From a virus (Duplodnaviria; Heunggongvirae; Uroviricota; Caudoviricetes), in IMG/VR virus record IMGVR_UViG_3300037418_003165, positions 1-64,000 of that record: a stretch of DNA of 64,000 bases; one strand, 5' to 3'. Position numbers and translations under genes: made by a program. Shown here piece after piece: positions 12,201 to 48,555 of the stretch. How positions within the stretch are numbered: the stretch's first letter is position 1; the number at the start of each line of letters is the position of its first letter. The notes under the pieces were generated by a model, which was not told the origin of the DNA, did no database searches, and saw nothing but the letters and a program-made list of their open reading frames with translations.

Positions 12201-12556
12201 AGAATGAAGTCCCGCAAAACGAATCGCGGGACGAGATGGCCGAGCGGGCGCTGCGTTGGTGTCGCGCAAATGACGGCGGCCGCCTCGGGGTCTGGTGGCC
12301 CTGCGGTTCCCATCCGAGGGACCCGGCTGACACGAGCCAACCGATCATGGCTGTGATGTGGGACGGCGGCGGCACTGGTGAACTCGGCGTGTTCTACGAC
12401 AAGGCCGGTGCCGATGACATGGAAACCATCTGCGACATCTTCAATTGGGCCCTCGACCAGCTTGTCCCCAGCGTGCGGGGATACTACGGCGACCGGACAT
12501 ATCTCCTCCCGAAGTCTCCGCCGGCGGCCGCCGAGGCGGAGGAGGACCGCCCGTGA
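12197..12556 (+). CDS. Hypothetical protein.
   Basis: ATGA overlap. MKNEVPQNESRDE... Confidence 0.5.
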   Translation: MKNEVPQNESRDEMAERALRWCRANDGGRLGVWWPCGSHPRDPADTSQPIMAVMWDGGGTGELGVFYDKAGADDMETICDIFNWALDQLVPSVRGYYGDRTYLLPKSPPAAAEAEEDRP

Positions 12557-13257
12557 CGAAACTCCTTCTCGAAGGTATCGCTGGCTCGACAGCCTATGGT
12601 TTGAGCCGCCCGGGCAGCGATCTCGACTACATCGGCATCTACGTCGAACCCACCCGAAACTTTCTCGGACTCCACCCGCCCTCTCGTGAACGCGCCACCC
12701 GGAAAGGCCGCGGGGGAGCAGACGGCACCTTCCACGAGATCGGCAAGTCGATGACCCTCATGCTCGCCTGCAACCCACACGCGCTCGAAATCCTCTGGCT
12801 CGACAACTACACCCACTCAACCGGTTTCGGCTGGGAACTCATCGCCCTGCGAGACTGCTTCCTGTCAGCTCAAAACGTGCGTGACCGATACTTCGAGTAC
12901 GCCCGTGGGCAACTCAAGCGACTGGTCAATTCGGGCCGCTTCGCCGGATCGCTCGAAACGCGACGAGAGAAGCACGCCCGCCACACCATGCGGATCCTCT
13001 GGCAAGGCTACGAGCTATACACCACCGGCACTCTGCCGATCCGCGTACCTGCGCCTGAGCTCCTGTTCGAGTTCGGGCAGCGGGTTGCGCACGACCCAGA
13101 TGCCCGAGCAGCCGAAACGCTGATCGCCGAATACGAAGCGAAGTTCGACGACGCACGCACAGTCCTTCCGGCTGAGCCCACCGAAGCACCACTCGAAGAC
13201 CTTCTGCAGCGCATCCGTCGCGCTCACCTCGAGATCGCGGACGGAGGCCGATCATGA
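12553..13257 (+). CDS. Pol-beta-superfamily nucleotidyltransferase.
   Basis: GSTAYGLSRPGSDLDYIG matches the GS...SDxD nucleotidyltransferase motif. GTGA overlap start. Confidence 0.6.
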   Translation: MTKLLLEGIAGSTAYGLSRPGSDLDYIGIYVEPTRNFLGLHPPSRERATRKGRGGADGTFHEIGKSMTLMLACNPHALEILWLDNYTHSTGFGWELIALRDCFLSAQNVRDRYFEYARGQLKRLVNSGRFAGSLETRREKHARHTMRILWQGYELYTTGTLPIRVPAPELLFEFGQRVAHDPDARAAETLIAEYEAKFDDARTVLPAEPTEAPLEDLLQRIRRAHLEIADGGRS

Positions 13258-13856
13258 GCGAAATCTGGTACGTGTCAGACCTGCATATCGATCATCGCTT
13301 CGTGGCCGCCGAGCGGGGATTCGATTCGACGGCGGAGCATGACCGTGTCCTGGCCGAGAACTGGGACAGCAGAGTCGCACGGGACGACATAGTGGAGGTA
13401 CTCGGCGACATCTCGGTCGGCGGCAAGCGTGCGGAACTGAATGCATTGCAGTGGGTTTCGCGGCGCCCAGGCCGCAAGCACCTGAAAGCAGGCAACCATG
13501 ACGGCTGCCACGCAATGCGCAGCGAAGCGGCCAAGTGGCAGCGGATTTACCTCGACACCGCATTCGAATCAGTCCAGCAGTACGGGATCCGCAAGATCGC
13601 TGATCAACGGGTATTGCTATGTCACTTCCCCTTCCAGGGCAGCGATTACGGCGACCACACGCCAGAGAACCGCTTCGAGGAGTGGCGGCTCCCGTGCATC
13701 GGCGAGAACGCCGACCGATGGCTGCTGCACGGGCACACCCACAGCCCGATCAAGGTCCGCGGCCGCCAACTCCACATCGGCCTCGACGCCCACGACCTGA
13801 CCCCGGTGCCGCAGACATGGGTGCAACACATGATTGCCAACGATCCACCGTTCTGA
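13254..13856 (+). CDS. Calcineurin-like metallophosphoesterase.
   Basis: DLHIDH, GNHD and GHTH metal-binding motifs. ATGA overlap. Confidence 0.7.
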   Translation: MSEIWYVSDLHIDHRFVAAERGFDSTAEHDRVLAENWDSRVARDDIVEVLGDISVGGKRAELNALQWVSRRPGRKHLKAGNHDGCHAMRSEAAKWQRIYLDTAFESVQQYGIRKIADQRVLLCHFPFQGSDYGDHTPENRFEEWRLPCIGENADRWLLHGHTHSPIKVRGRQLHIGLDAHDLTPVPQTWVQHMIANDPPF

Positions 13857-14561: not shown

Positions 14562-14701
14562 TCTTCGGCGTCGCCACCGCGAACGCCGCGTATGACGCTG
14601 TCGAGCACCATGTTCCATTCGACTGGGTATGGGCAACGTTTTGGGGGATTCTCACGCTGCTCGCGCTGATCAACCATCTTCGCGAAGGGAAGAAGCCATG
14701 A
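14549..14701 (+). CDS. Small membrane protein (50 aa).
   Basis: MWVLIFGVATANAAY...WATFWGILTLLALINHL. Overlaps the upstream stop. Confidence 0.4.
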   Translation: MWVLIFGVATANAAYDAVEHHVPFDWVWATFWGILTLLALINHLREGKKP

Positions 14702-14770
14702 CCAACCCGACCTCTACTCGAAACGATGAGCGGCTATCCCGGTGTCGCCGGGTGGCACGGATAGCCGACA

Positions 14771-15310
14771 GTGGCTGAGCAAAGACGTCACATCGGCTGG
14801 TGCAGGCCGTGCCGCAAACAACTGTTCACCAGCCGTAAGGCGGCCAAACGCGCCTGCCGCCGCCGACACCCGGCAGAACAACTCACCGCCTACCGGTGCC
14901 CTGTCGATGACGGCTGGCACGGCGGGCATCTTCCGCGCAAGGTGCGAGAGGGCAGGGTGGCGCGCTCGCAGTACTACGAGCAGCGGCCACGAAGCCGACG
15001 AAAGGACGCGACCACAGTGGACGACCGGAGCTGGCAGCCGAAGGATGCGATCGACCAGATCCTCTACGAGGTGTGGTGCAGCGCAATGGATGCCGCCTAC
15101 AGCAAGGACTTTCGGAAACGAACGCACGAGTGCTCGGTGTGCCACGAACCGCACTCGATCCTCGACGAGGACAAATACCTCGAGTATCAGAGCACAGTGC
15201 TGAACTATCGACGGCAGGCACTCGATGCCCACATTGCGCAGCAAAGCCGCCCGGTAGCTGTCCAATCTGCCAAGGAATCTTCGCCAGAGCTGCGACACGA
15301 CGTGGAATAG
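14771..15310 (+). CDS. Hypothetical Cys-rich basic protein.
   Basis: Listed 179-aa ORF with a GTG start. Confidence 0.45.
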   Translation: MAEQRRHIGWCRPCRKQLFTSRKAAKRACRRRHPAEQLTAYRCPVDDGWHGGHLPRKVREGRVARSQYYEQRPRSRRKDATTVDDRSWQPKDAIDQILYEVWCSAMDAAYSKDFRKRTHECSVCHEPHSILDEDKYLEYQSTVLNYRRQALDAHIAQQSRPVAVQSAKESSPELRHDVE

Positions 15311-15468
15311 CCTTGGCGTAGGTAGGCAATATGGCTACAGTGGCGATTACTTCCGGTGCGCTAGCTGGGGCTACTTCATCAGAATGCGGATCTGACACCG
15401 AAATGCCTCGGCGACCTTTTTTCTCGGGAGTACAAACTTCAGAGTGTGGTTGATCGCCCGGTGCGATA

Positions 15469-15577
15469 GGTGAGAGTTACTTCGCCCTCAAGCGGGGAAC
15501 GCGGGTTCGAATCCCGTCGCAGCGCTGAGCGTGCTGTGTGGTCGAGCGGCCTATGACACCTACAGTCACTTTCACCA
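15469..15577 (+). ncRNA. Y-RNA-like (YrlA-type) ncRNA candidate 1, carrying a permuted tRNA-like domain.
   Basis: T-arm gcggg-ttcgaat-cccgt (15501-15517). 3' acceptor-like cgcagcg (15518-24) pairs with tgctgtg (15532-38) across a 7-nt loop. D-arm gtcg-agcggccta-tgac (15541-57). A 13-bp closing stem forms between 15469-81 and 15565-77. Lies immediately upstream of rsr. Confidence 0.55.
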
Positions 15578-15607
15578 GGGCTTGTTTTTCTCGGGCGATC
15601 GTCGACC

Positions 15608-15771
15608 CCTTCGGGGGCGGAGCCTGGTGCGCTGGCGTGGGTTACTTCCACTGTTAATGGAGAGGTTGCAGGTTCGATTCCTGTCACACCCCCCGTAAGG
15701 ATCGGGTGTGTAGCTCAATTGGCAGAGCGCTATCACCTTCGCCGAATCTTTCTCAGGCCCCGCTCCCGAAA
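15608..15771 (+). ncRNA. Y-RNA-like (YrlA-type) ncRNA candidate 2, with a permuted tRNA-Asn-like domain.
   Basis: Hairpin ttcca-ctGTTaa-tggag. T-arm gcagg-ttcgatt-cctgt (15668-84). 3' acceptor cacaccc (15685-91) pairs perfectly with gggtgtg (15704-10) across a 12-nt loop. D-arm gctc-aattggc-agagc. A 17-bp closing stem forms between 15610-26 (ttcgggggcggagcctg) and 15753-69 (caggccccgctcccgaa). Confidence 0.6.
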
Positions 15772-15812
15772 CTCTGAATGCTTGTGCCCCCGCCATCCAC
15801 AGAAGGGCAGGC

Positions 15813-17375
15813 ATGAGCAAGTTCAACGGCAGCGCCGCGCGGGCAGTCGCCGCGGGCCCGATCCAAACCGGTTTCGCCCGCGACGCGAAATCCGAACTCT
15901 TCCTCCTCGCCATCACCAACATGGTCGGGGAGAAGACCTTCTACGAGACCGCGATCGAACGCGATTCCCGATTTGCCGGGCTCGTCCGCACCATCGCCCT
16001 CAACGACCTCGACTGGCTCACTCGCTTCGGGCGCTGGCTGCGCACCGAAGTGAACATGCGCAGCGTGTCTCTCGTGCTCGCCGCAGAAGCCGCCAAAGCC
16101 ACCAACGACGCTGGACAGCACGGTGGCCGCGAACTCGTCAACGCCGTGCTCCAGCGCGCCGACGAACCGGGGGAGATGGTCGCCTACTGGCTGTCGCACT
16201 ACGGGCGCCGACTCCCGAAACCCGTCAAGCGAGGCATAGCCGACGCCGCGGCCCGGCTCTACAACGAACGCTCAACCCTCAAGTGGGACAGCGCCGGCCA
16301 CGGCATCCGCTTCGCCGACGTCATCCAGCTCACCCACCCCGACCCCCAGGCCCTCTGGCAGTCGGAGCTGTTCAAATACCTCGTCGCCCGCCGCTGGGGC
16401 AACGACGTCGAGCCCTCGCCCCGCCTCCAGATGCTGCACGCCAACGCCCACATGCGCACCCACAGCCCCGAGCACATCAAGACGCTGGCGACGAGCGGCC
16501 ACCTGGCGGAACTGCTGCGTCTGGCCGGAATGACCTGGGAAGCGATCCCCGTCCTCGTGCAGGGACCGTGGACTGCCGAACTGTGGTCGGCGGCGATCCC
16601 GACCATGGGTTACATGGCGCTCACGCGCAACCTTCGCAATTTCGACCAGGCCCACGTCAGCGACGATATCGCCGAGCAGGTCGCTGCACGCCTCAGCGAC
16701 CCCCAGCAGGTCGCACGGTCGGGGATGCTGCCAATGCAGTTCCTGTCCGCCTACCGGGCCGCGCCCTCACTGCGCTGGGCGTACCCGCTGGAAAAGGCCC
16801 TCGATCTATCGCTGGCCAACATCCCGCAGCTCCGCGGCCGCACGCTGGTGCTGGTCGACACCTCCTCCTCGATGGATGCCGGCTTCTCCAAGGACGGCAC
16901 CCTCCGGCGCTGGGACGCGGCCGCACTCTTCGGAATCGGCCTCGCCGCCCGCTGCGAGTCAGCCGACCTCGTGTCGTTCTCCAGTACTGCCCAGTACTGG
17001 GGGCAGCCCCACAACGCCCACACCCGCGAATTCACCACCACCGCAGGCGAATCCCTACTCAAAGCCCTCGACCGGTGGAAGCAGGGCGGATGGTTCCTCG
17101 GTGGCGGCACCGCCACCGCGGCCGCGGTGCGGCGCCACTTCAACGCCCACGACCGCGTAGTGATCCTCACCGACGAGCAGGCCCAGCACGACGGCCAGGA
17201 AGTCGGCCAGGCGCTCCCGAAGCAGGTGCCGCTCTACACCTGGAACCTCGCCGGCTACAAGCGCGGCCACGCCGCCGGCGGCCCGAACCGGCACACCTTC
17301 GGAGGCCTCACCGACAAGGCCTTCACGATGATCCCGCTCCTCGAGCGCGGCCGCGACTGCGATTGGCCCTTCTAA
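15813..17375 (+). CDS. rsr: Ro60/Rsr ortholog (TROVE domain plus C-terminal vWA domain).
   Basis: 520 aa. RBS GAAGGGCAGG. MIDAS motif LVLVDTSSSM. The overall TROVE-vWA architecture is typical of Ro60. Confidence 0.75.
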   Translation: MSKFNGSAARAVAAGPIQTGFARDAKSELFLLAITNMVGEKTFYETAIERDSRFAGLVRTIALNDLDWLTRFGRWLRTEVNMRSVSLVLAAEAAKATNDAGQHGGRELVNAVLQRADEPGEMVAYWLSHYGRRLPKPVKRGIADAAARLYNERSTLKWDSAGHGIRFADVIQLTHPDPQALWQSELFKYLVARRWGNDVEPSPRLQMLHANAHMRTHSPEHIKTLATSGHLAELLRLAGMTWEAIPVLVQGPWTAELWSAAIPTMGYMALTRNLRNFDQAHVSDDIAEQVAARLSDPQQVARSGMLPMQFLSAYRAAPSLRWAYPLEKALDLSLANIPQLRGRTLVLVDTSSSMDAGFSKDGTLRRWDAAALFGIGLAARCESADLVSFSSTAQYWGQPHNAHTREFTTTAGESLLKALDRWKQGGWFLGGGTATAAAVRRHFNAHDRVVILTDEQAQHDGQEVGQALPKQVPLYTWNLAGYKRGHAAGGPNRHTFGGLTDKAFTMIPLLERGRDCDWPF

Positions 17376-18553
17376 TGCCGATGACGCAGATCAGCCCCAA
17401 ATTGCTGTCGTGGGCCGTTGAGATCGACGACAACACGATCGAACAGGCGCACCAGACCGCGAGCATGCCGTTCGTGGCCCCGCACGTCGCGCTGATGCCC
17501 GACGCGCACAGTGGGCTCGGCGCCGCGGTGGGAACCGTCATCCCCACCGACGGCGCTGTGATCCCAGCCGCGGTCGGCGTGGACATCGGCTGCGGTATGG
17601 GTGCGATCGAGACTCGCTTCACCGCAGCCGATATCGACGGCCGCGACCTGGGCCAGCTGCGCGCAGCCATCGAGGCCGCGATCCCGCTGAGCCCCGGCTT
17701 CTACAACACCGCCATCACCCGCGACCACACCGCCGAACGGATCGCCGAGCTCGAAGGACTCGCCGCGCGCAACAGCGTCGACCTCACGCATTCTCCGAAG
17801 TGGCGCGAGCAGCTCGGCTCGCTTGGCGGCGGTAACCACTTCATCGAGCTGTGCTTGGACGAACGCCAGCACGTGTGGCTGTTCCTTCACTCCGGAAGCC
17901 GGGGCGTCGGCAACAAGATCGCCCAACGTCACATCAAGATCGCCCAGCAGCTGTGCAAGCGGTGGTGGATCGACCTGCCCAGCCCAGACCTCGCTTACCT
18001 CGTCGAGGGCACACACGAGTTCGCCTTCTACATCAAGGAACTCGCGTGGGCGCAGAAATTCGCCGCGCTCAACCGCGCGGACATGCTCGACCGGTTCGCC
18101 GCCGAATTCGCGCACTGGATCGGCGCCGACGACCACGGCGAAGTCGACCGGATCATCTCCCACCACAACTACACCCGCCGCGAGAAGCACATGGGCCGAG
18201 ACGTCTGGTTGACCCGGAAGGGCGCCGTCGATGCACACGCCGGCGTGCGGTCGATGATTCCAGGCAGCATGGGCACCGCCTCCTACGTCGTGGAAGGCAA
18301 GGGCTGCGTCCCGGCGCTCTGCTCGGCACCGCACGGCGCCGGCCGACGCATGTCGCGCACGGAGGCGAAAAAGCGGTTCACCGCCGACGACCTCTCCGCC
18401 CGCATGCAGGGAATCGAGTACCGGCCGGGCGAGGAATGGGTGGACGAGATCCCGGACGCGTACAAGCCGATCGACGAAGTCATGGCCGCCGCAGAGCCAC
18501 TGGTCACGGTGCTGCACCAATTGCGGCAGGTCATGAACGTCAAGGGAACGTAG
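17375..18553 (+). CDS. rtcB: RtcB RNA 3'-phosphate/5'-OH ligase.
   Basis: ATG overlaps the rsr stop. His/Cys metal-site motifs PDAHSGLG, GCGMG, GNHFIEL, HSGSRG and HHNY are typical of RtcB. Confidence 0.8.
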   Translation: MPMTQISPKLLSWAVEIDDNTIEQAHQTASMPFVAPHVALMPDAHSGLGAAVGTVIPTDGAVIPAAVGVDIGCGMGAIETRFTAADIDGRDLGQLRAAIEAAIPLSPGFYNTAITRDHTAERIAELEGLAARNSVDLTHSPKWREQLGSLGGGNHFIELCLDERQHVWLFLHSGSRGVGNKIAQRHIKIAQQLCKRWWIDLPSPDLAYLVEGTHEFAFYIKELAWAQKFAALNRADMLDRFAAEFAHWIGADDHGEVDRIISHHNYTRREKHMGRDVWLTRKGAVDAHAGVRSMIPGSMGTASYVVEGKGCVPALCSAPHGAGRRMSRTEAKKRFTADDLSARMQGIEYRPGEEWVDEIPDAYKPIDEVMAAAEPLVTVLHQLRQVMNVKGT

Positions 18554-18621
18554 GGGAGCGATGGCATACGCCGAGTCCTGCTGTGGCGCATTCCGAACCG
18601 CGGACGAGAGGTAACACCGAC

Positions 18622-18930
18622 ATGGACGTCACACCTGTCCCGTCGGGTGCCCTGGCCAGGATGAGGAAGTCTGGCGCGAAACCGTCGCCCGGTCTGCTGG
18701 CGGCGATCGACGCCGCGGCGCGGCGCCGCAACCGGCGACAGCTGCCCGCGCGCTGGCACCCGAAAGGCCTGCGCGAACACCTCTGCCAGCAAGCGACATG
18801 CGCGCCCGACAACGAAACCAAGGCCGCCATCAATGCCCTGATCGCCGTGCTCGACCGCCACCGCCCGCTCGGGCCGGACGGCAAGCACGGCACCCAGCAC
18901 ACCCCGACCTGTGGATGCGAGGACACATGA
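18622..18930 (+). CDS. Hypothetical protein.
   Basis: RBS GAGAGG. MDVTPVPSG... Confidence 0.45.
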   Translation: MDVTPVPSGALARMRKSGAKPSPGLLAAIDAAARRRNRRQLPARWHPKGLREHLCQQATCAPDNETKAAINALIAVLDRHRPLGPDGKHGTQHTPTCGCEDT

Positions 18931-19577
18931 CCAACCCCGACAAGACCCTCATCGCCGTGCTGCTCGACCGCTCCGGATCGATGCAATCGGTGAAGGACGA
19001 CACCGAGGGCGGCTTCAACCAGTTCATCGCCGACCAGCGCGAAAAGCCCGGCACCGCAACAGTTACCCTCGCCCAGTTCGACCACGAGTACGAACTCGTC
19101 TACTCCAACGTCCCGCTGGCGAAGGTCCCGCCGCTGGAACTTTCGCCGCGGGGGTCGACCGCACTGCTCGACGGAATCGGGAAGCTCACCGTCGATATCG
19201 GCGCCGACCTCCGCGCGCTGCCCGAAGACCAGCGACCGTCCACGGTGATCGTCGTCGTGCTCACCGACGGCCACGAGAACGCATCGAAGGAATGGTCACG
19301 CGATGCAGTCCAGCGACTGATCACCCAGCAACAGGACCAGTGGAACTGGAACTACATCTTCCTCGGCGCCACCCTCGACGCGGTCGAAACCGGCGTCGAC
19401 CTCGGCGTCATGCGCGGCCACTCGATGCACTTCTCACCCAAGGCGGTCGGGGCCACCTTCGACGCACTGGCCGACGCCACCACGACCATGCGAGGCGGCG
19501 CCGCGTTCACCGGCTTCGGCGACGCCCAGCGCGCGGCCGCCGCCGGCGCACCCGCGGTCGGCACGCCAGACGCATGA
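18927..19577 (+). CDS. von Willebrand factor A (vWA) domain protein.
   Basis: MIDAS motifs DRSGSM and TDGHEN. ATGA overlap. Confidence 0.65.
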   Translation: MTNPDKTLIAVLLDRSGSMQSVKDDTEGGFNQFIADQREKPGTATVTLAQFDHEYELVYSNVPLAKVPPLELSPRGSTALLDGIGKLTVDIGADLRALPEDQRPSTVIVVVLTDGHENASKEWSRDAVQRLITQQQDQWNWNYIFLGATLDAVETGVDLGVMRGHSMHFSPKAVGATFDALADATTTMRGGAAFTGFGDAQRAAAAGAPAVGTPDA

Positions 19578-44351: not shown

Positions 44352-44423
44352 TCCCGGTTGGTGTAGTCGGCAGCACAGCGGACTTTGGTTCCGCGAGTCC
44401 AGGTTCGAGCCCTGGGCCGGGAG
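44352..44423 (+). tRNA. tRNA-Gln (anticodon TTG).
   Basis: Manual cloverleaf. Acceptor tcccggt/gccggga. D-arm gtgt-agtcggca-gcac. Anticodon arm gcgga-ctTTGgt-tccgc. Variable loop gagt. T-arm ccagg-ttcgagc-cctgg. Discriminator g. No encoded CCA. Confidence 0.7.
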
Positions 44424-46908: not shown

Positions 46909-48555
46909 GTGGCGGTACTCATCGTCCCGCCCCTCGACCTGACCTACCCGACCCTCGGACCCGACCTCGCGGACTTCATCGAGGAACGGTTCACGTTCGG
47001 GCCAGGATCGCTGGCGGGAGAGCCGGCGGTCCTCGACGACGAGAAGCGCGCCGCGCTGTACCGGCTGTACGAGGTGTACCCGCAGGGGCACCCGCTGGCC
47101 GGGCGGCGCCGCTTCAACCAGGGCGCCATCGAGTGGCGTAAGGGCCTGGCCAAGACGGAGTTCGCGGCGTGGGTGTGCGGCCTCGAGCTGCACCCGGAGG
47201 CGCCGGTTCGCTGCGACGGCTTCAACGCCGCGGGCGAACCGGTCGGCCGGCCGGTGAAATTCCCGTACATCCCGATGATGGCGGTCACCGAGGAACAGGT
47301 GAGCGAGCTCGCCTATGGCGTGCTCTGCTACGTCCTCGAGCACAGCCCCGACGCCGACCTGTTCGACATCGGCGCAGACCGGATCATCCGGCTCGGCCGC
47401 AACGGCGCGCCGGACGGCCGCGCGGTGCCGGTATCGAACGCCCCGGGCAGCCGCGACGGTGCGCTGACCACCTTCCAGCACTTCGACGAGCCGCACCGGC
47501 TGTACCTGCCGTCGCAGGTCGGCGCGCACGAAACGATGATGCAGAACCTGTCGAAGCGGGCGCTGGAAGATCCGTGGAGCTTCTACACCAGCACCGCGGG
47601 CAAGCCTGGACAGAAGAGCATCCAGGAGAGCCTTCGTCGCGGCGCCGAACGCATCGAACGTGGTGAGGTCGAGAAGCCGAAGATGTTCTTCTTCGGCCGC
47701 TGGGCTGGACCCGCACACGACGATCTCAGCACCGTCGAGAAGCGCATCGCAGCGATCGCGGAGGCCACCGGCCCGGCCGGTGAATACGGCCCTGGGCAGT
47801 TCCAGTCCATCGCCGAGGACTACGACCGCGAAGGCTGCGACCGGGCCTACTGGGAGCGCGTCTACCTCAACCGGTGGCGCGCCGGCGGAAACCAGGCCTT
47901 CAACATCACCAAGATCGTCGCCAACCTCGTTCGGCCCGCCGGGACCGTCATCCCGGCGGGCGCGTTCGTCGCCGGCGGCTTCGACGGCGCACGGATGCGG
48001 GACTCGACCGGTCTGGTGCTCACCGATATCCAGACCGGCCTGCAGCAGTGCGTGGCTCACTGGCAGCGGCCCGAGGGCGTCGAGGAGTGGGAGGTCGACG
48101 AGGCCGAGGTGACTGCGGCCTTCGAAGACGCCATGGACCGCTACGAGGTGTGGAAGATCTACGCCGATCCGCCGCACTGGACTGCGACGCTCGGTGATTT
48201 CTCGGTGCGATGGCCGGAGCGGATCGAGGAATGGTGGACCCACCGGCAGAAGCCGATGGCCTATGCGCTGCGCGAGTACATCGAGGGCCAGGACGCCGGC
48301 CTCGTTTCCTACGGCGGCACCGAGAAGCAGCTCGACGTCATGATCGACCACCTCGGCAACGCCGAACGCAAGGAACTGCGGATGTACGACGACCAGGGAT
48401 TTCCGCTGTACATCCTGCAGAAACCCGATGGCCGGCAGGACTGCAAGATCGACCTCTCCGTCTGCGGAGTCCTGTCCTGGAAAGCAACCCTCGACGCCCG
48501 CAAATCGGGCGCGAAACCCCGCCCGAAAGCCCGCGCCCCCCGGCGCCTGTATTGA
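46909..48555 (+). CDS. Terminase large subunit.
   Basis: 548 aa. The N-terminal ATPase region is followed by a nuclease half. Position before the portal gene. Confidence 0.75.
   Translation: MAVLIVPPLDLTYPTLGPDLADFIEERFTFGPGSLAGEPAVLDDEKRAALYRLYEVYPQGHPLAGRRRFNQGAIEWRKGLAKTEFAAWVCGLELHPEAPVRCDGFNAAGEPVGRPVKFPYIPMMAVTEEQVSELAYGVLCYVLEHSPDADLFDIGADRIIRLGRNGAPDGRAVPVSNAPGSRDGALTTFQHFDEPHRLYLPSQVGAHETMMQNLSKRALEDPWSFYTSTAGKPGQKSIQESLRRGAERIERGEVEKPKMFFFGRWAGPAHDDLSTVEKRIAAIAEATGPAGEYGPGQFQSIAEDYDREGCDRAYWERVYLNRWRAGGNQAFNITKIVANLVRPAGTVIPAGAFVAGGFDGARMRDSTGLVLTDIQTGLQQCVAHWQRPEGVEEWEVDEAEVTAAFEDAMDRYEVWKIYADPPHWTATLGDFSVRWPERIEEWWTHRQKPMAYALREYIEGQDAGLVSYGGTEKQLDVMIDHLGNAERKELRMYDDQGFPLYILQKPDGRQDCKIDLSVCGVLSWKATLDARKSGAKPRPKARAPRRLY

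What the first reader, a model, noticed from the sequence alone, without database searches (positions are those of the whole stretch)
15608..15771. Circularly permuted tRNA-Asn-like domain closed by a 17-bp terminal stem (Y RNA candidate 2)
From 5' to 3' the region has an anticodon-type hairpin with GTT in a 7-nt loop, then a T-arm, then a 3' acceptor strand cacaccc. A 12-nt loop follows, then the exactly complementary 5' acceptor strand gggtgtg and a canonical D-arm (tagctcaattggcagagc). This is a tRNA whose acceptor stem is capped by a loop and whose ends are opened at the anticodon side. Flanking 17-mers (15610-15626 and 15753-15769) pair with one mismatch to close the whole RNA. This is the topology expected of bacterial YrlA-type Y RNAs, in which a tRNA-like module sits opposite a Ro60-binding stem.
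Basis: seen in the sequence. Interest (0 to 1): 0.85.

Follow-up and report, generated by a model that had tools for sequence, protein, structure and literature searches.

The report
Phage YrlA-type Y RNA, permuted tRNA
This is a real small RNA gene of a known kind: a Y RNA whose middle folds like a rearranged transfer RNA, lying just upstream of the gene for its likely partner protein Ro60 in a phage RNA-repair gene cluster. It is a new example, not a new type.

Summary
The described anatomy is in the sequence. Only the closing-stem coordinates need a 1-nt correction: 15610-15627 pairs with 15753-15770, giving 17 pairs and one A/C mismatch.

The RNA (15610-15770, + strand) ends 43 nt before a Ro60/Rsr gene (15813-17375), which is followed by rtcB.

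- A covariance model built only from units upstream of rsr in 15 other loci hits it end to end: 108 bits, E=4e-21.
- In that family, 28 of 35 consensus pairs show compensatory changes.
- Rfam YrlA is the best Rfam match, but only locally and below its gathering score (36 vs 69 bits).
- Moving the 5' acceptor strand and D arm in front of the hairpin, T arm and 3' acceptor strand gives a perfect tRNA-Asn(GUU) cloverleaf.

The RNA is the third of three tandem Y RNAs (15349-15431, 15453-15600, 15610-15770).

All of this is already published: the YrlA family, its presence in phages and the "circularly permuted tRNA" description. The instance is therefore a new member of a known kind.

One twist is modestly new. 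The published "V arm" here is a full anticodon-arm mimic. Its central triplet is the variable spot among relatives, and tRNA finders mis-call it as a tRNA in GenBank phage records.

The parts
15610..15770 (+). Y RNA unit 3, the finding: a YrlA-class Y RNA of 161 nt counting the extended closing stem. The family-typical core is 15619-15762.
   Evidence: CM R1, built without window sequences, hits 15619-15762 at 108 bits, E=3.7e-21, model positions 1-140. Fold.
15610..15627 (+). Closing stem P1, 5' strand. It pairs with 15753-15770 (11 bp, A/C mismatch, 6 bp). The outer 9 bp go beyond the family norm.
   Evidence: P1 pairs covary in the family alignment. Closing-stem lengths in the other units are 5-12 bp.
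15626..15635 (+). GGUGCGCUGG, the clade's version of the 5' Ro60-recognition motif. The clade consensus is GGUGCG(C/A)AGG; the published motif is GNCGAAN0-1G.
   Evidence: GGUG and the second G of the CG are invariant, and its C nearly so, in 24 units. Motif definition from Chen 2014. Assigning it to Ro60 binding is an inference.
15633..15642 (+). Inner stem P2, 5' strand (UGGCG, GGGU). It pairs with 15735-15744.
   Evidence: P2 pairs covary (columns 30-37 with 141-148).
15642..15645 (+). UUAC, the conserved YUAY element that precedes the V arm in YrlA RNAs.
   Evidence: near-invariant; described in Chen 2014.
15646..15662 (+). V arm, an anticodon-arm mimic: 5-bp stem UUCCA/UGGAG and 7-nt loop C-U-GUU-A-A.
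   Evidence: Two of the five stem pairs show compensatory changes in 13 units.
15663..15667 (+). AGGUU, a 5-nt linker equivalent to a class I variable loop. U15667 can form the Levitt pair with A15 of the D loop.
   Evidence: cloverleaf. Levitt-pair logic from Chen 2014.
15668..15684 (+). T arm (GCAGG UUCGAUU CCUGU).
15685..15710 (+). Acceptor-like stem-loop (AS): CACACCC, a 12-nt loop (CCCGUAAGGAUC), then GGGUGUG. The stem is 7 bp. Predicted RNase P cleavage is 5' of G15704.
   Evidence: The AS pairs are the most strongly covarying in the family. The RNase P and CCA precedent is M. smegmatis YrlA. Cleavage here is an inference.
15711..15728 (+). U8-A9 equivalents plus the D arm (GCUC AAUUGGCA GAGC).
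15735..15770 (+). 3' strands of P2 (15735-15744) and P1 (15753-15770), flanking the internal-loop strand AAUCUUUC (15745-15752). The clade consensus for that region is CGACUUGAUCUC.
15453..15600 (+). Y RNA unit 2. It is also tRNA-like: T arm, AS stem and a class II-type D arm.
   Evidence: R1 hit at 77.9 bits, E=8.6e-15. Weak Rfam YrlA hit of 16 bits.
15349..15431 (+). Y RNA unit 1. It is short and has no tRNA module.
   Evidence: CM R2, built from 16 short units of other loci, hits it at 33.5 bits, E=3.2e-5.
15313..15341 (+). Candidate SigA-type promoter: TTGGCG, 17-nt spacer, TACAGT. It ends 7 nt before unit 1.
   Evidence: Read by eye. A TA(C/G)NNT box sits 6-17 nt before the first unit in most related loci. 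The consensus scan found no promoter-like site in 14700-16000; by hand this site matches 8 of 12, below the scan's 9. Inference only.
15813..17375 (+). rsr, a Ro60 homologue (TROVE plus vWA, 520 aa).
   Evidence: Pfam TROVE E=1e-11. Thermus phage phiLo Ro60 structures 9KOP and 9L5Y, E=6e-27. Actinophage "Ro-like RNA binding protein" genes at 37-45% identity.
17372..18553 (+). rtcB RNA ligase. Its start codon overlaps the rsr stop codon.
   Evidence: Pfam RtcB E=6e-111. Matches phage RtcB genes.
12445..13856 (+). Upstream RNA-repair genes: RlaP nucleotidyltransferase (12445-13257) and a metallophosphoesterase (13254-13856).
   Evidence: Pfam PF10127 E=4.5e-20 and PF00149 E=1.5e-6.

Best explanation
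Window 15610-15770 (+) encodes a YrlA-class Y RNA of an actinobacteriophage or prophage. It is the last of three tandem Y RNA units. These are probably transcribed from a promoter at about 15313-15341 together with rsr (Ro60) and rtcB, and cut out of that precursor.

The RNA has two modules.
1. A long closing stem with an internal loop carrying GGUGCGCUGG on the 5' strand. By homology this is the Ro60-binding site.
2. A complete tRNA-shaped domain in permuted order: anticodon-like V arm, 5-nt variable loop, T arm, loop-capped 7-bp acceptor stem, U8-A9, D arm.

By analogy with characterised Y RNAs, the RNA binds the Ro60 ring through the stem. It presents the tRNA mimic to tRNA-recognising proteins such as modification enzymes, RNase P, the CCA-adding enzyme, and an as yet unknown effector. 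This would tether or gate Ro60 during RNA quality control and repair in infection. Like M. smegmatis YrlA, it probably gets cut by RNase P 5' of G15704 and CCA-tailed, giving two base-paired halves of about 85 and 67 nt.

Shown here: the anatomy, family membership by homology and covariation, and the synteny. Inferred: Ro60 binding, processing, expression and function.
For: - Synteny: the RNA ends 43 nt before rsr on the same strand; rtcB follows, and RlaP and a phosphoesterase lie upstream.
- Rfam: YrlA RF02553 is the best match (36.1 bits, E=3e-6, T/AS/D core). It is also the best family for units in related loci, at 33-48 bits.
- Relatives: the 18 of 19 related rsr loci that hold upstream sequence carry 1-5 tandem units with the same architecture.
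- Independent model: CM R1, built without the window, scores 108 bits, E=3.7e-21, end to end. Apart from unit 2 nothing else in the 64 kb scores below E=0.4.
- Covariation: in RNAalifold on 24 units, 28 of 35 pairs have compensatory changes, covering P1, P2, T, AS and D.
- Isolated phages: R1 also hits next to Ro-like genes in Gordonia VanLee and Rabbitrun, Arthrobacter Atuin and Streptomyces LuckySocke.
- Re-permutation: it gives a perfect tRNA-Asn cloverleaf carrying U8, A14, A15:U48, G18G19, U54U55C56 and A58. The re-permuted sequence aligns end to end with real phage tRNA-Lys and tRNA-Asn genes at 77-80% identity.
- Link to a validated RNA: the probes for M. smegmatis YrlA and YrlB are complementary to the same motifs. 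That YrlA is Rsr-bound, cleaved by RNase P and CCA-tailed.
Against: - There are no expression or binding data for this locus.
- The Rfam match is local and well below the gathering score (36 vs 69 bits). Neither the window nor any related locus reached it.
- The literal GNCGAAN0-1G motif is absent. The clade has GUGCG(C/A)AGG, and the window has U in place of A.
- The 3' internal-loop strand (AAUCUUUC) departs from the clade consensus (CUUGAUC).
- The V hairpin is not in the MFE and has a pair probability of about 0.25.
- A competing CCCC-UUCG-GGGG hairpin (15606-15617, read by eye and not folded) could block the outer part of the closing stem.
- The effector and the biological role of YrlA RNAs are unknown even in model organisms.
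Confidence: 0.86

Rival explanations
1. It is a degenerate or unusual canonical tRNA-Asn gene (ARAGORN's call at 15625-15694), perhaps a pseudogene.
For: ARAGORN calls tRNA-Asn(gtt) at 15625-15694. The Rfam tRNA model gives 25.5 bits over 15613-15692.
Against: - The score is below the tRNA gathering score of 29.
- ARAGORN's native call has two acceptor mismatches and a poor 3-bp D arm.
- A perfect 7-bp acceptor partner and a canonical D arm lie downstream instead.
- The permuted order and the closing stem are conserved with covariation in many loci.
- Equivalent ARAGORN or GenBank tRNA calls in relatives overlap Y RNA units.
Confidence: 0.02
2. The region holds two tRNA fragments left by recombination or integration (an attP/attB-type 3' half followed by a 5' half) and makes no functional RNA.
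For: A 3' tRNA half followed by a 5' half is what a tandem or partial tRNA duplication would leave. The window is phage DNA.
Against: - The arrangement is conserved next to rsr across loci whose Rsr proteins are only 44-63% identical to the window's.
- Compensatory changes keep the AS, P1 and P2 helices intact.
- The units occur in arrays of up to 5.
- Scars under no selection would not covary.
Confidence: 0.02
3. It acts only in cis, as a structured 5' leader of the rsr-rtcB mRNA (stability, processing or translational control), and is not released as a stable trans-acting RNA bound by Ro60.
For: - No terminator-like site was found between the units and rsr.
- The units lie inside the probable 5' UTR.
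- A conserved hairpin covering the Shine-Dalgarno-like GAAGGG sits just before the ATG.
Against: - In M. smegmatis the homologous upstream RNAs are processed from one precursor and co-immunoprecipitate with Rsr.
- In phage Atuin the units lie downstream of the Ro-like gene, not in its leader.
- Conservation of tRNA tertiary-contact nucleotides is not explained by a leader role.
Confidence: 0.06

Closest known systems
M. smegmatis YrlA (Chen et al. 2014, PMC4201824)
   Same: - It lies upstream of rsr, on the same strand, in a multi-Y-RNA precursor.
- It is about 147 nt long and has a 7-bp acceptor-like stem.
- It has YUAC followed by a hairpin with loop CUUCUAA (probe complement TTACCACTTCTAATGGAATGGTC).
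- It has T and D arms.
   Different: - The window RNA has a longer closing stem (17 bp), a 12-nt AS loop and GUU instead of UCU in the V loop.
- It is phage-borne, with rtcB and RlaP in the cluster.
[quoted passage not shown]
S. Typhimurium YrlA (Rfam RF02553; crystal structure 6CU1, Wang et al. 2018)
   Same: - Same order of T arm, loop-capped acceptor stem and D arm.
- The same tertiary-contact nucleotides.
- Part of an rsr-rtcB operon.
- Already described in print as resembling a circularly permuted tRNA.
   Different: - Salmonella YrlA has a 6-bp AS stem, no V hairpin and "lacks the anticodon loop". Its Ro stem continues directly from the D stem as the anticodon stem, giving a four-way junction.
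- Here a 6-nt linker follows the D arm and an extra anticodon-like hairpin is present, giving a five-way junction.
- The Rfam model matches only positions 24-84.
M. smegmatis YrlB and other short Y RNAs; Thermus phage phiLo Yrl1 and Yrl2 (PMC12135203)
   Same: - They are companion Y RNAs encoded in tandem upstream of Ro60.
- phiLo shows that a phage Ro60 binds phage-encoded Y-like RNAs.
- Window units 1 and 2 play the companion role here.
   Different: In the passages read, the phiLo Yrls are not described as having a tRNA-like module (a search of the paper for 'tRNA-like' found nothing). phiLo Ro60 matches the window Rsr only distantly (E=6e-27).
D. radiodurans Yrn1 and the RYPER complex
   Same: It has a Ro60-binding stem plus a partly tRNA-like effector module. 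It is the mechanistic paradigm: the Y RNA tethers Ro60 to PNPase.
   Different: The order of the T- and D-like elements is opposite, and both strands of the Ro helix are metazoan-like. The authors judge it to have evolved independently.
Circularly permuted tRNA genes of Cyanidioschyzon merolae and some archaea
   Same: The 3' tRNA half is encoded before the 5' half, and the two acceptor strands are joined by a short linker.
   Different: From my own knowledge: those genes are processed through a circular intermediate into ordinary tRNAs used in translation. Here the break point carries a long Ro60-type stem, the unit sits in a Y RNA array next to rsr, and the anticodon triplet is not conserved among homologous units.

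Membership tests
YrlA Y RNA (Chen 2014; Rfam RF02553) | Encoded within 4 kb of a Ro60/Rsr (TROVE) gene, on the same strand | tested here: met
   The RNA ends at 15770 and rsr starts at 15813, on the same strand.
YrlA Y RNA (Chen 2014; Rfam RF02553) | Nearly invariant T-like stem-loop (GGUUCGAnUCC) | tested here: met
   15668-15684, GCAGGUUCGAUUCCUGU. It is aligned to the YrlA model and to R1.
YrlA Y RNA (Chen 2014; Rfam RF02553) | Nearly invariant D-like stem-loop preceded by UA, located 3' of the T arm | tested here: met
   15711-15728, UA GCUCAAUUGGCAGAGC.
YrlA Y RNA (Chen 2014; Rfam RF02553) | Acceptor-like stem-loop (AS) between the T and D arms, conserved in structure but not in sequence | tested here: met
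   A 7-bp stem, 15685-15691 with 15704-15710. The 8 AS pairs show 7-14 double changes each across 24 units, except the pair next to the T stem, which has one.
YrlA Y RNA (Chen 2014; Rfam RF02553) | V region upstream of the T arm, beginning with the conserved YUAY | tested here: met
   UUAC at 15642-15645, then the hairpin 15646-15662.
YrlA Y RNA (Chen 2014; Rfam RF02553) | GNCGAAN0-1G motif near the 5' end (proposed Ro60 contact) | tested here: inconclusive
   The window has GGUGCGCUGG and the clade consensus is GGUGCG(C/A)AGG. Low-GC relatives have GACGAAG or GUCGAAG, which fit the motif. The actinobacterial form lacks the N, and the window has U where A is expected.
YrlA Y RNA (Chen 2014; Rfam RF02553) | Nucleotides for tRNA tertiary contacts, including a 15:48 Levitt pair | tested here: met
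   U8, A14, A15:U48, G18, G19, U54, U55, C56 and A58 are all present in the re-permuted cloverleaf. This is shown by sequence only.
YrlA Y RNA (Chen 2014; Rfam RF02553) | Score at or above the Rfam gathering threshold (69 bits) | tested here: not met
   36.1 bits, local match to model positions 24-84. No hit at gathering score in the window. Units in related loci score 33-48 bits. The V hairpin, the linker and the divergent stems are not in the model.
YrlA Y RNA (Chen 2014; Rfam RF02553) | Bound by Rsr; modified by TruB and DusA; in the M. smegmatis type, cleaved by RNase P and CCA-tailed | not testable with these tools
   Only the prerequisites can be seen: a 7-bp acceptor stem, then C-CC after the 3' strand, and G at +1.
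   108 bits, E=3.7e-21, model positions 1-140.
Canonical tRNA (RF00005) | Contiguous order of 5' acceptor strand, D arm, anticodon arm, T arm and 3' acceptor strand, scoring above threshold | tested here: not met
   25.5 bits against a gathering score of 29. ARAGORN's native call has a defective acceptor stem and D arm. The cloverleaf is perfect only after permutation.
Metazoan-type Y RNA (Rfam Y_RNA) | Match to the Y_RNA model (conserved bulged Ro helix) | tested here: not met
   No Y_RNA hit at E up to 10 in 15250-15850.

The most novel reading that the evidence does not exclude
In this actinophage subclass the "V arm" is a true anticodon stem-loop mimic: a 5-bp stem, a loop reading C32-U33-NNN-A37-A38, and a 5-nt variable loop. 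[quoted passage not shown]

The phage could use it as bait, competitive inhibitor or sensor for host anticodon nucleases or other tRNA-targeting defences. The neighbouring RlaP, phosphoesterase and RtcB would repair it or the real tRNAs. The fast-changing triplet would reflect retargeting in an arms race.

Observations that fit this reading:
- All 36 parsed units of this type pass as class I tRNAs after re-permutation.
- The triplet is the variable spot inside an otherwise conserved 5' 45 nt.
- Two phage loci with 99% identical rsr differ at 4 of 7 V-loop bases.

Observations that do not fit:
- The hairpin is absent, short or not anticodon-like in most long units of the unselected loci (20 of 33). 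The likely ortholog in L007 has a UUCG-type tetraloop.
- Similar hairpins occur in short units that have no tRNA body.
- Plain lack of constraint on three looped-out bases explains the variability.
Probability: 0.12. Interest if true: 0.8.

Novelty: new member of a known kind. Interest (0 to 1): 0.35.

Why it matters
The finding adds a well-supported Y RNA array (three units) to an uncharacterised actinophage RNA-repair cassette of RlaP, phosphoesterase, Y RNAs, Ro60 and RtcB.

It shows that the curated Rfam YrlA model misses this whole clade at its gathering score. As a result, tRNA finders and GenBank phage annotations report the 5' parts of these RNAs as tRNA genes, or cover them with small ORFs.

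It gives a clean example in which every arm of a tRNA, including an anticodon-like arm, survives in permuted order. This fits the published idea that YrlA RNAs arose from dimeric tRNA transcripts.

The 7-bp acceptor stem, the single-stranded 12-nt loop and the anticodon-like loop make this RNA a good test case. It could show whether some Y RNAs are processed into two-piece tRNA mimics that interact with anticodon-directed enzymes.

Tried and rejected
- blastn of 15400-15800 against the phage collection found nothing. Megablast of 15300-18600 matched only rtcB. Nucleotide similarity alone therefore does not identify the RNA.
- The Rfam gathering-threshold scan of the window reported only tRNA-Gln at 44352.
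- The sigma-70 and terminator consensus scan found no promoter or + strand terminator around the array. The promoter I propose was read by eye and by comparison across loci.
- My first parse of the units used a pairing register one base off and mis-set the boundaries. This was corrected.
- My hand-drawn P2 coordinates were wrong (non-pairs listed). I used the constrained fold instead.
- The supplementary alignments of Chen 2014 and the 2020 Annual Review on bacterial Ro60 are not held. I linked to M. smegmatis YrlA through the probe sequences in the Methods instead.
- The source contig is an unannotated Logan assembly (SRR35144446). The host, and hence the host tRNA-Asn, could not be identified. 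I compared the re-permuted RNA with phage tRNAs instead.
- Rejected readings: canonical or degraded tRNA, integration scar, and a meaningful "Asn" identity for the RNA. Units with GCU, UCU or GGU triplets share the same class I body.
Full report
**1. Observation.**
- an anticodon-type hairpin, 15646-15662 (UUCCA / CUGUUAA / UGGAG)
- a 5-nt linker AGGUU
- a T arm, 15668-15684
- the strand CACACCC, 15685-15691
- a 12-nt loop
- the exact complement GGGUGUG, 15704-15710
- UA
- a canonical D arm, 15713-15728

The closing helix is real, but its register is 15610-15627 with 15753-15770: 11 bp, an A15621/C15759 mismatch, then 6 bp. With the coordinates as quoted, only 10 positions pair.

The MFE fold of 15600-15780 keeps the closing stem, the T arm, the acceptor-like stem and the D arm. 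The energy is -72.9 kcal/mol with z = -2.27. In the ensemble these helices have probabilities of 0.67-1.0. The anticodon-like hairpin has about 0.25 and costs 1.1 kcal/mol to enforce.

**2. Context.**
The RNA ends 43 nt upstream of a 520-aa ORF (15813-17375) on the same strand.
- The ORF has a TROVE domain and a weak vWA match.
- It matches the solved Ro60 of Thermus phage phiLo at E=6e-27.
- It is 37-45% identical to the "Ro-like RNA binding protein" of many actinophages.
- Its stop codon overlaps the start of an RtcB RNA ligase gene (Pfam E=6e-111).
- An RlaP nucleotidyltransferase and a metallophosphoesterase lie 2-3 kb upstream.

The window is actinophage-like. GC content is 62-70%. A large-terminase gene at about 46973-47880 resembles those of Mycobacterium phages. 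The Rsr protein was found on a single 38-kb contig of an unannotated Logan assembly.

RlaP, RtcB and Ro60 (ROT/TROVE) proteins are all described as components of phage RNA-repair systems, and RlaP's distribution mirrors that of the RNA ligases. RlaP has recently been shown to add 1-2 nucleotides to damaged RNA ends.

**3. What the databases say.**
- At the gathering threshold, Rfam reports only a tRNA-Gln elsewhere in the window.
- With permissive thresholds the best match for the region is YrlA (RF02553). It scores 36.1 bits, E=3e-6, against a gathering score of 69, and covers only model positions 24-84, the T/AS/D core.
- The tRNA model scores 25.5 bits, below its threshold of 29.
- ARAGORN calls a tRNA-Asn(gtt) at 15625-15694. 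That call has two acceptor-stem mismatches and a defective D arm.

**4. Relatives.**
Nineteen loci encode Rsr proteins 44-63% identical to the window's. Eleven come from actinobacterial genomes and eight from IMG/VR viral contigs.

The 18 loci that hold sequence upstream of rsr carry 1 to 5 tandem units there, with a common plan:
- 5' NNNCCGGUGCG(C/A)AGG
- an inner stem
- G(G/A)UUACUUC
- an optional hairpin
- T arm
- acceptor-like hairpin
- UA plus D arm
- a linker
- the inner-stem 3' strand
- CGACUUGAUCUCGGGNNN 3'

Some units are short (70-88 nt) and lack the tRNA module.

An RNAalifold consensus of 24 long units has 35 pairs. Of these, 28 have compensatory double changes, spread over the closing stem, the inner stem, and the T, AS and D helices.

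I built covariance model R1 from 22 units, none from the window.
- It hits 15619-15762 end to end at 108 bits, E=3.7e-21.
- It hits a second unit at 15453-15600 at 77.9 bits.
- No other hit in the 64 kb scores below E=0.4.

A second model, built from 16 short units of other loci, finds a third unit at 15349-15431 (33.5 bits, E=3e-5). The finding is therefore the last of three tandem Y RNAs.

R1 also hits next to the Ro-like genes of isolated phages: Gordonia VanLee and Rabbitrun, Arthrobacter Atuin and Streptomyces LuckySocke. For units in related loci, Rfam YrlA is again the best family, at 33-48 bits, and is sometimes matched over its full length.

**5. Link to experimentally characterised RNAs.**
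Chen et al. 2014 define YrlA RNAs by these features:
- a 5' GNCGAAN0-1G motif
- a less conserved V stem-loop beginning at a conserved YUAY
- nearly invariant T and D stem-loops
- an acceptor-like stem-loop between them
- location within 4 kb of rsr on the same strand

They report such RNAs in 254 bacteria and 22 phages.

M. smegmatis YrlA is about 147 nt long and co-immunoprecipitates with Rsr. Because it has a 7-bp acceptor stem, it is cut by RNase P and then CCA-tailed. Its Northern probes are given in the Methods.
- The YrlA-5' probe is complementary to TTACCACTTCTAATGGAATGGTC. That is the same YUAC element followed by a hairpin with loop CUUCUAA.
- The YrlB probe is complementary to ...GACTTCAAGGTTCGACT. 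This resembles the 111-nt units of L009 and L011, in which the T arm follows ACUUC directly.

Wang et al. 2018 solved the Salmonella YrlA tRNA-like domain. [quoted passage not shown] They cite the model that these RNAs derive from dimeric tRNA transcripts. A phage Ro60 has been shown to bind phage-encoded Y-like RNAs.

**6. The permuted tRNA.**
Joining 15704-15729 (5' acceptor strand, U8-A9, D arm, G26) to 15646-15692 (hairpin, AGGUU, T arm, 3' acceptor strand, discriminator C) gives a sequence that ARAGORN draws as a flawless class I tRNA-Asn(GUU).

That sequence aligns over 96-99% of its length, at 77-80% identity, with genuine phage tRNA-Lys and tRNA-Asn genes.

In the native RNA the break is not in the anticodon loop. 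The Ro-type stem enters between the D arm (plus a 6-nt linker) and the intact hairpin, so the core is a five-way junction. Salmonella YrlA has a four-way junction, and its Ro stem takes the place of the anticodon stem.

**7. The hairpin in relatives.**
In 13 of 33 distinct long units from the unselected loci, the V hairpin has a 5-bp stem, a 7-nt loop with U at position 2 and a purine at position 6, and 4-5 nt before the T stem in 12 of the 13. In the other units it is shorter, different or absent. The stem shows compensatory changes at two of its five pairs. That set was chosen for pairing, so the percentage paired is biased.

A scan of viral contigs for TTACTTCCACTNNNAATGG returned 80 loci (84 matching stretches). 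Twenty-eight of the R1-positive units in them, 24 of them distinct, carry the pattern; their GC content runs from 36 to 66%. The NNN was GCU, GUU, UCU, GGU, UAU, ACU, CAC, UGU or CUU.

All 36 units that could be parsed become canonical class I tRNAs for ARAGORN after re-permutation, whatever the triplet. The "Asn" label therefore carries no identity information.

Within the strongly conserved 5' 45 nt of related units, the triplet is the variable spot. Two loci with 99% identical rsr differ at 4 of 7 bases in one V loop and 2 of 7 in another.

These observations have three possible explanations, which I could not separate:
- lack of constraint on looped-out bases
- a single conversion event
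- selection on an anticodon mimic

Hughes et al. 2020 had already suggested that the YrlA tRNA-like domain might competitively inhibit an anticodon nuclease.

**8. Mechanism.**

*Shown here:* the anatomy, homology to the clade, covariation and synteny.

*From the literature on homologues:* Rsr binds these RNAs. TruB and DusA modify them. [quoted passage not shown] In D. radiodurans, the Y RNA tethers Ro60 to PNPase.

*Inferred for this locus:*
- Transcription starts from a promoter TTGGCG-17-TACAGT (15313-15341). Its -10-like box recurs before the first unit in most relatives. The consensus scan found no promoter-like site in the region.
- The three units are processed from an rsr-rtcB precursor.
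- Rsr binds at the GGUGCGCUGG internal loop.
- The tRNA mimic is presented to tRNA-binding factors.
- RNase P probably cleaves 5' of G15704, which would give halves of about 85 and 67 nt.

The effector and the physiological role remain unknown even for the model YrlA RNAs.

**9. Rivals.**
- *A degraded tRNA.* This is contradicted by the sub-threshold score, the defective native cloverleaf and the conserved permuted order.
- *An integration scar.* This is contradicted by the covariation and the conserved synteny.
- *A purely cis-acting leader.* This is possible only in part. The units are probably co-transcribed with rsr. In phage Atuin, however, they lie downstream of the Ro gene, and the M. 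smegmatis homologues are released and bound by Rsr.

**10. Verdict.**
It belongs to a known family, so it is a new member, not a new kind.

Three modest additions come out of this work:
- The curated Rfam model misses this clade at its gathering score.
- The units form arrays.
- In this subclass the V arm completes a full permuted tRNA, with a freely varying "anticodon".

These RNAs are also mis-annotated in public phage records. "tRNA-Arg(tct)" in VanLee and "tRNA-Ser(gct)" in LuckySocke both lie inside Y RNA units.

Noticed in passing
window 15349-15431 (+): A third, short Y RNA unit with no tRNA module, upstream of the two tRNA-like units. It has the same 5' CCGGUGCG and 3' CUCGGG closing-stem signature and GCUACUUC.
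   Followed up: yes
It has a T arm, an acceptor-like stem and a class II-type D arm (GGUCGAGCGGCCUAUGAC). R1 scores it at 77.9 bits.
   Followed up: partly
window 15313-15341 (+); first units of L001-L019: A SigA-like promoter (TTGGCG, 17-nt spacer, TACAGT) ends 7 nt before unit 1. A G(C/T)TA(C/G)NNT box recurs 6-17 nt before the first Y RNA unit in most related loci.
   Followed up: partly
window 15433-15444 and 15774-15779; spacers in L002-L019: Conserved spacer motifs that may be processing sites. (C)ACAACUUCAGAG occurs between units; the window has CAAACUUCAGAG. CUGAA(C/U) follows the last unit.
   Followed up: no
window 15785-15809 (+): A hairpin (UGCCC...GGGCA) just before the rsr ATG encloses the Shine-Dalgarno-like GAAGGG. 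Stronger equivalents (GGCUCCCUCC...GGAAGGAGCC) precede rsr in L002, L003, L008, L015 and L016. It may control translation.
   Followed up: no
L020 2204-2275 (Gordonia phage VanLee); L023 2274-2347 (Streptomyces phage LuckySocke); L021 1825-2182 (Rabbitrun): The GenBank features "tRNA-Arg(tct)" and "tRNA-Ser(gct)" lie inside Y RNA units (R1 107.9 and 76.5 bits). They appear to be mis-calls of the V arm, T arm and 3' acceptor part. Rabbitrun's small hypothetical CDS gp93 and gp94 overlap R1 hits. ARAGORN makes similar calls in L001, L007, L011 and L012.
   Followed up: partly
L001 2188-2570 vs L014 2429-2806: These two loci have 99% identical rsr. They differ at 4 of 7 bases in one V loop (CUGUUAA vs AUCGCAA) and 2 of 7 in another. 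The rest of the array is about 97-98% identical. The substitution hotspot is unexplained.
   Followed up: partly
L011 2425-2504, L015 2638-2710 and other short units: Some short Y RNA units with no T or D arm also carry a hairpin with an anticodon-like loop right after YUAC (CUGUUAA in L011, CUGCUAA in L015). The hairpin is therefore not tied to the tRNA body.
   Followed up: no
window 15606-15617 (+): CCCC-UUCG-GGGG could form a small stable hairpin in the spacer between units 2 and 3. It overlaps the first 8 nt of the extended closing stem and might compete with it during transcription.
   Followed up: no
L004 2724-2961: One unit carries an insertion of about 100 nt in the acceptor-like stem-loop, making the unit 238 nt. 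This echoes the long AS stems reported for cyanobacterial YrlA RNAs.
   Followed up: no
window 18798-19577 (+): The ORF downstream of rtcB has a DRSGSM (MIDAS-like, vWA-type) motif but no Pfam hit at E up to 0.001. It may be a further member of the cassette.
   Followed up: no
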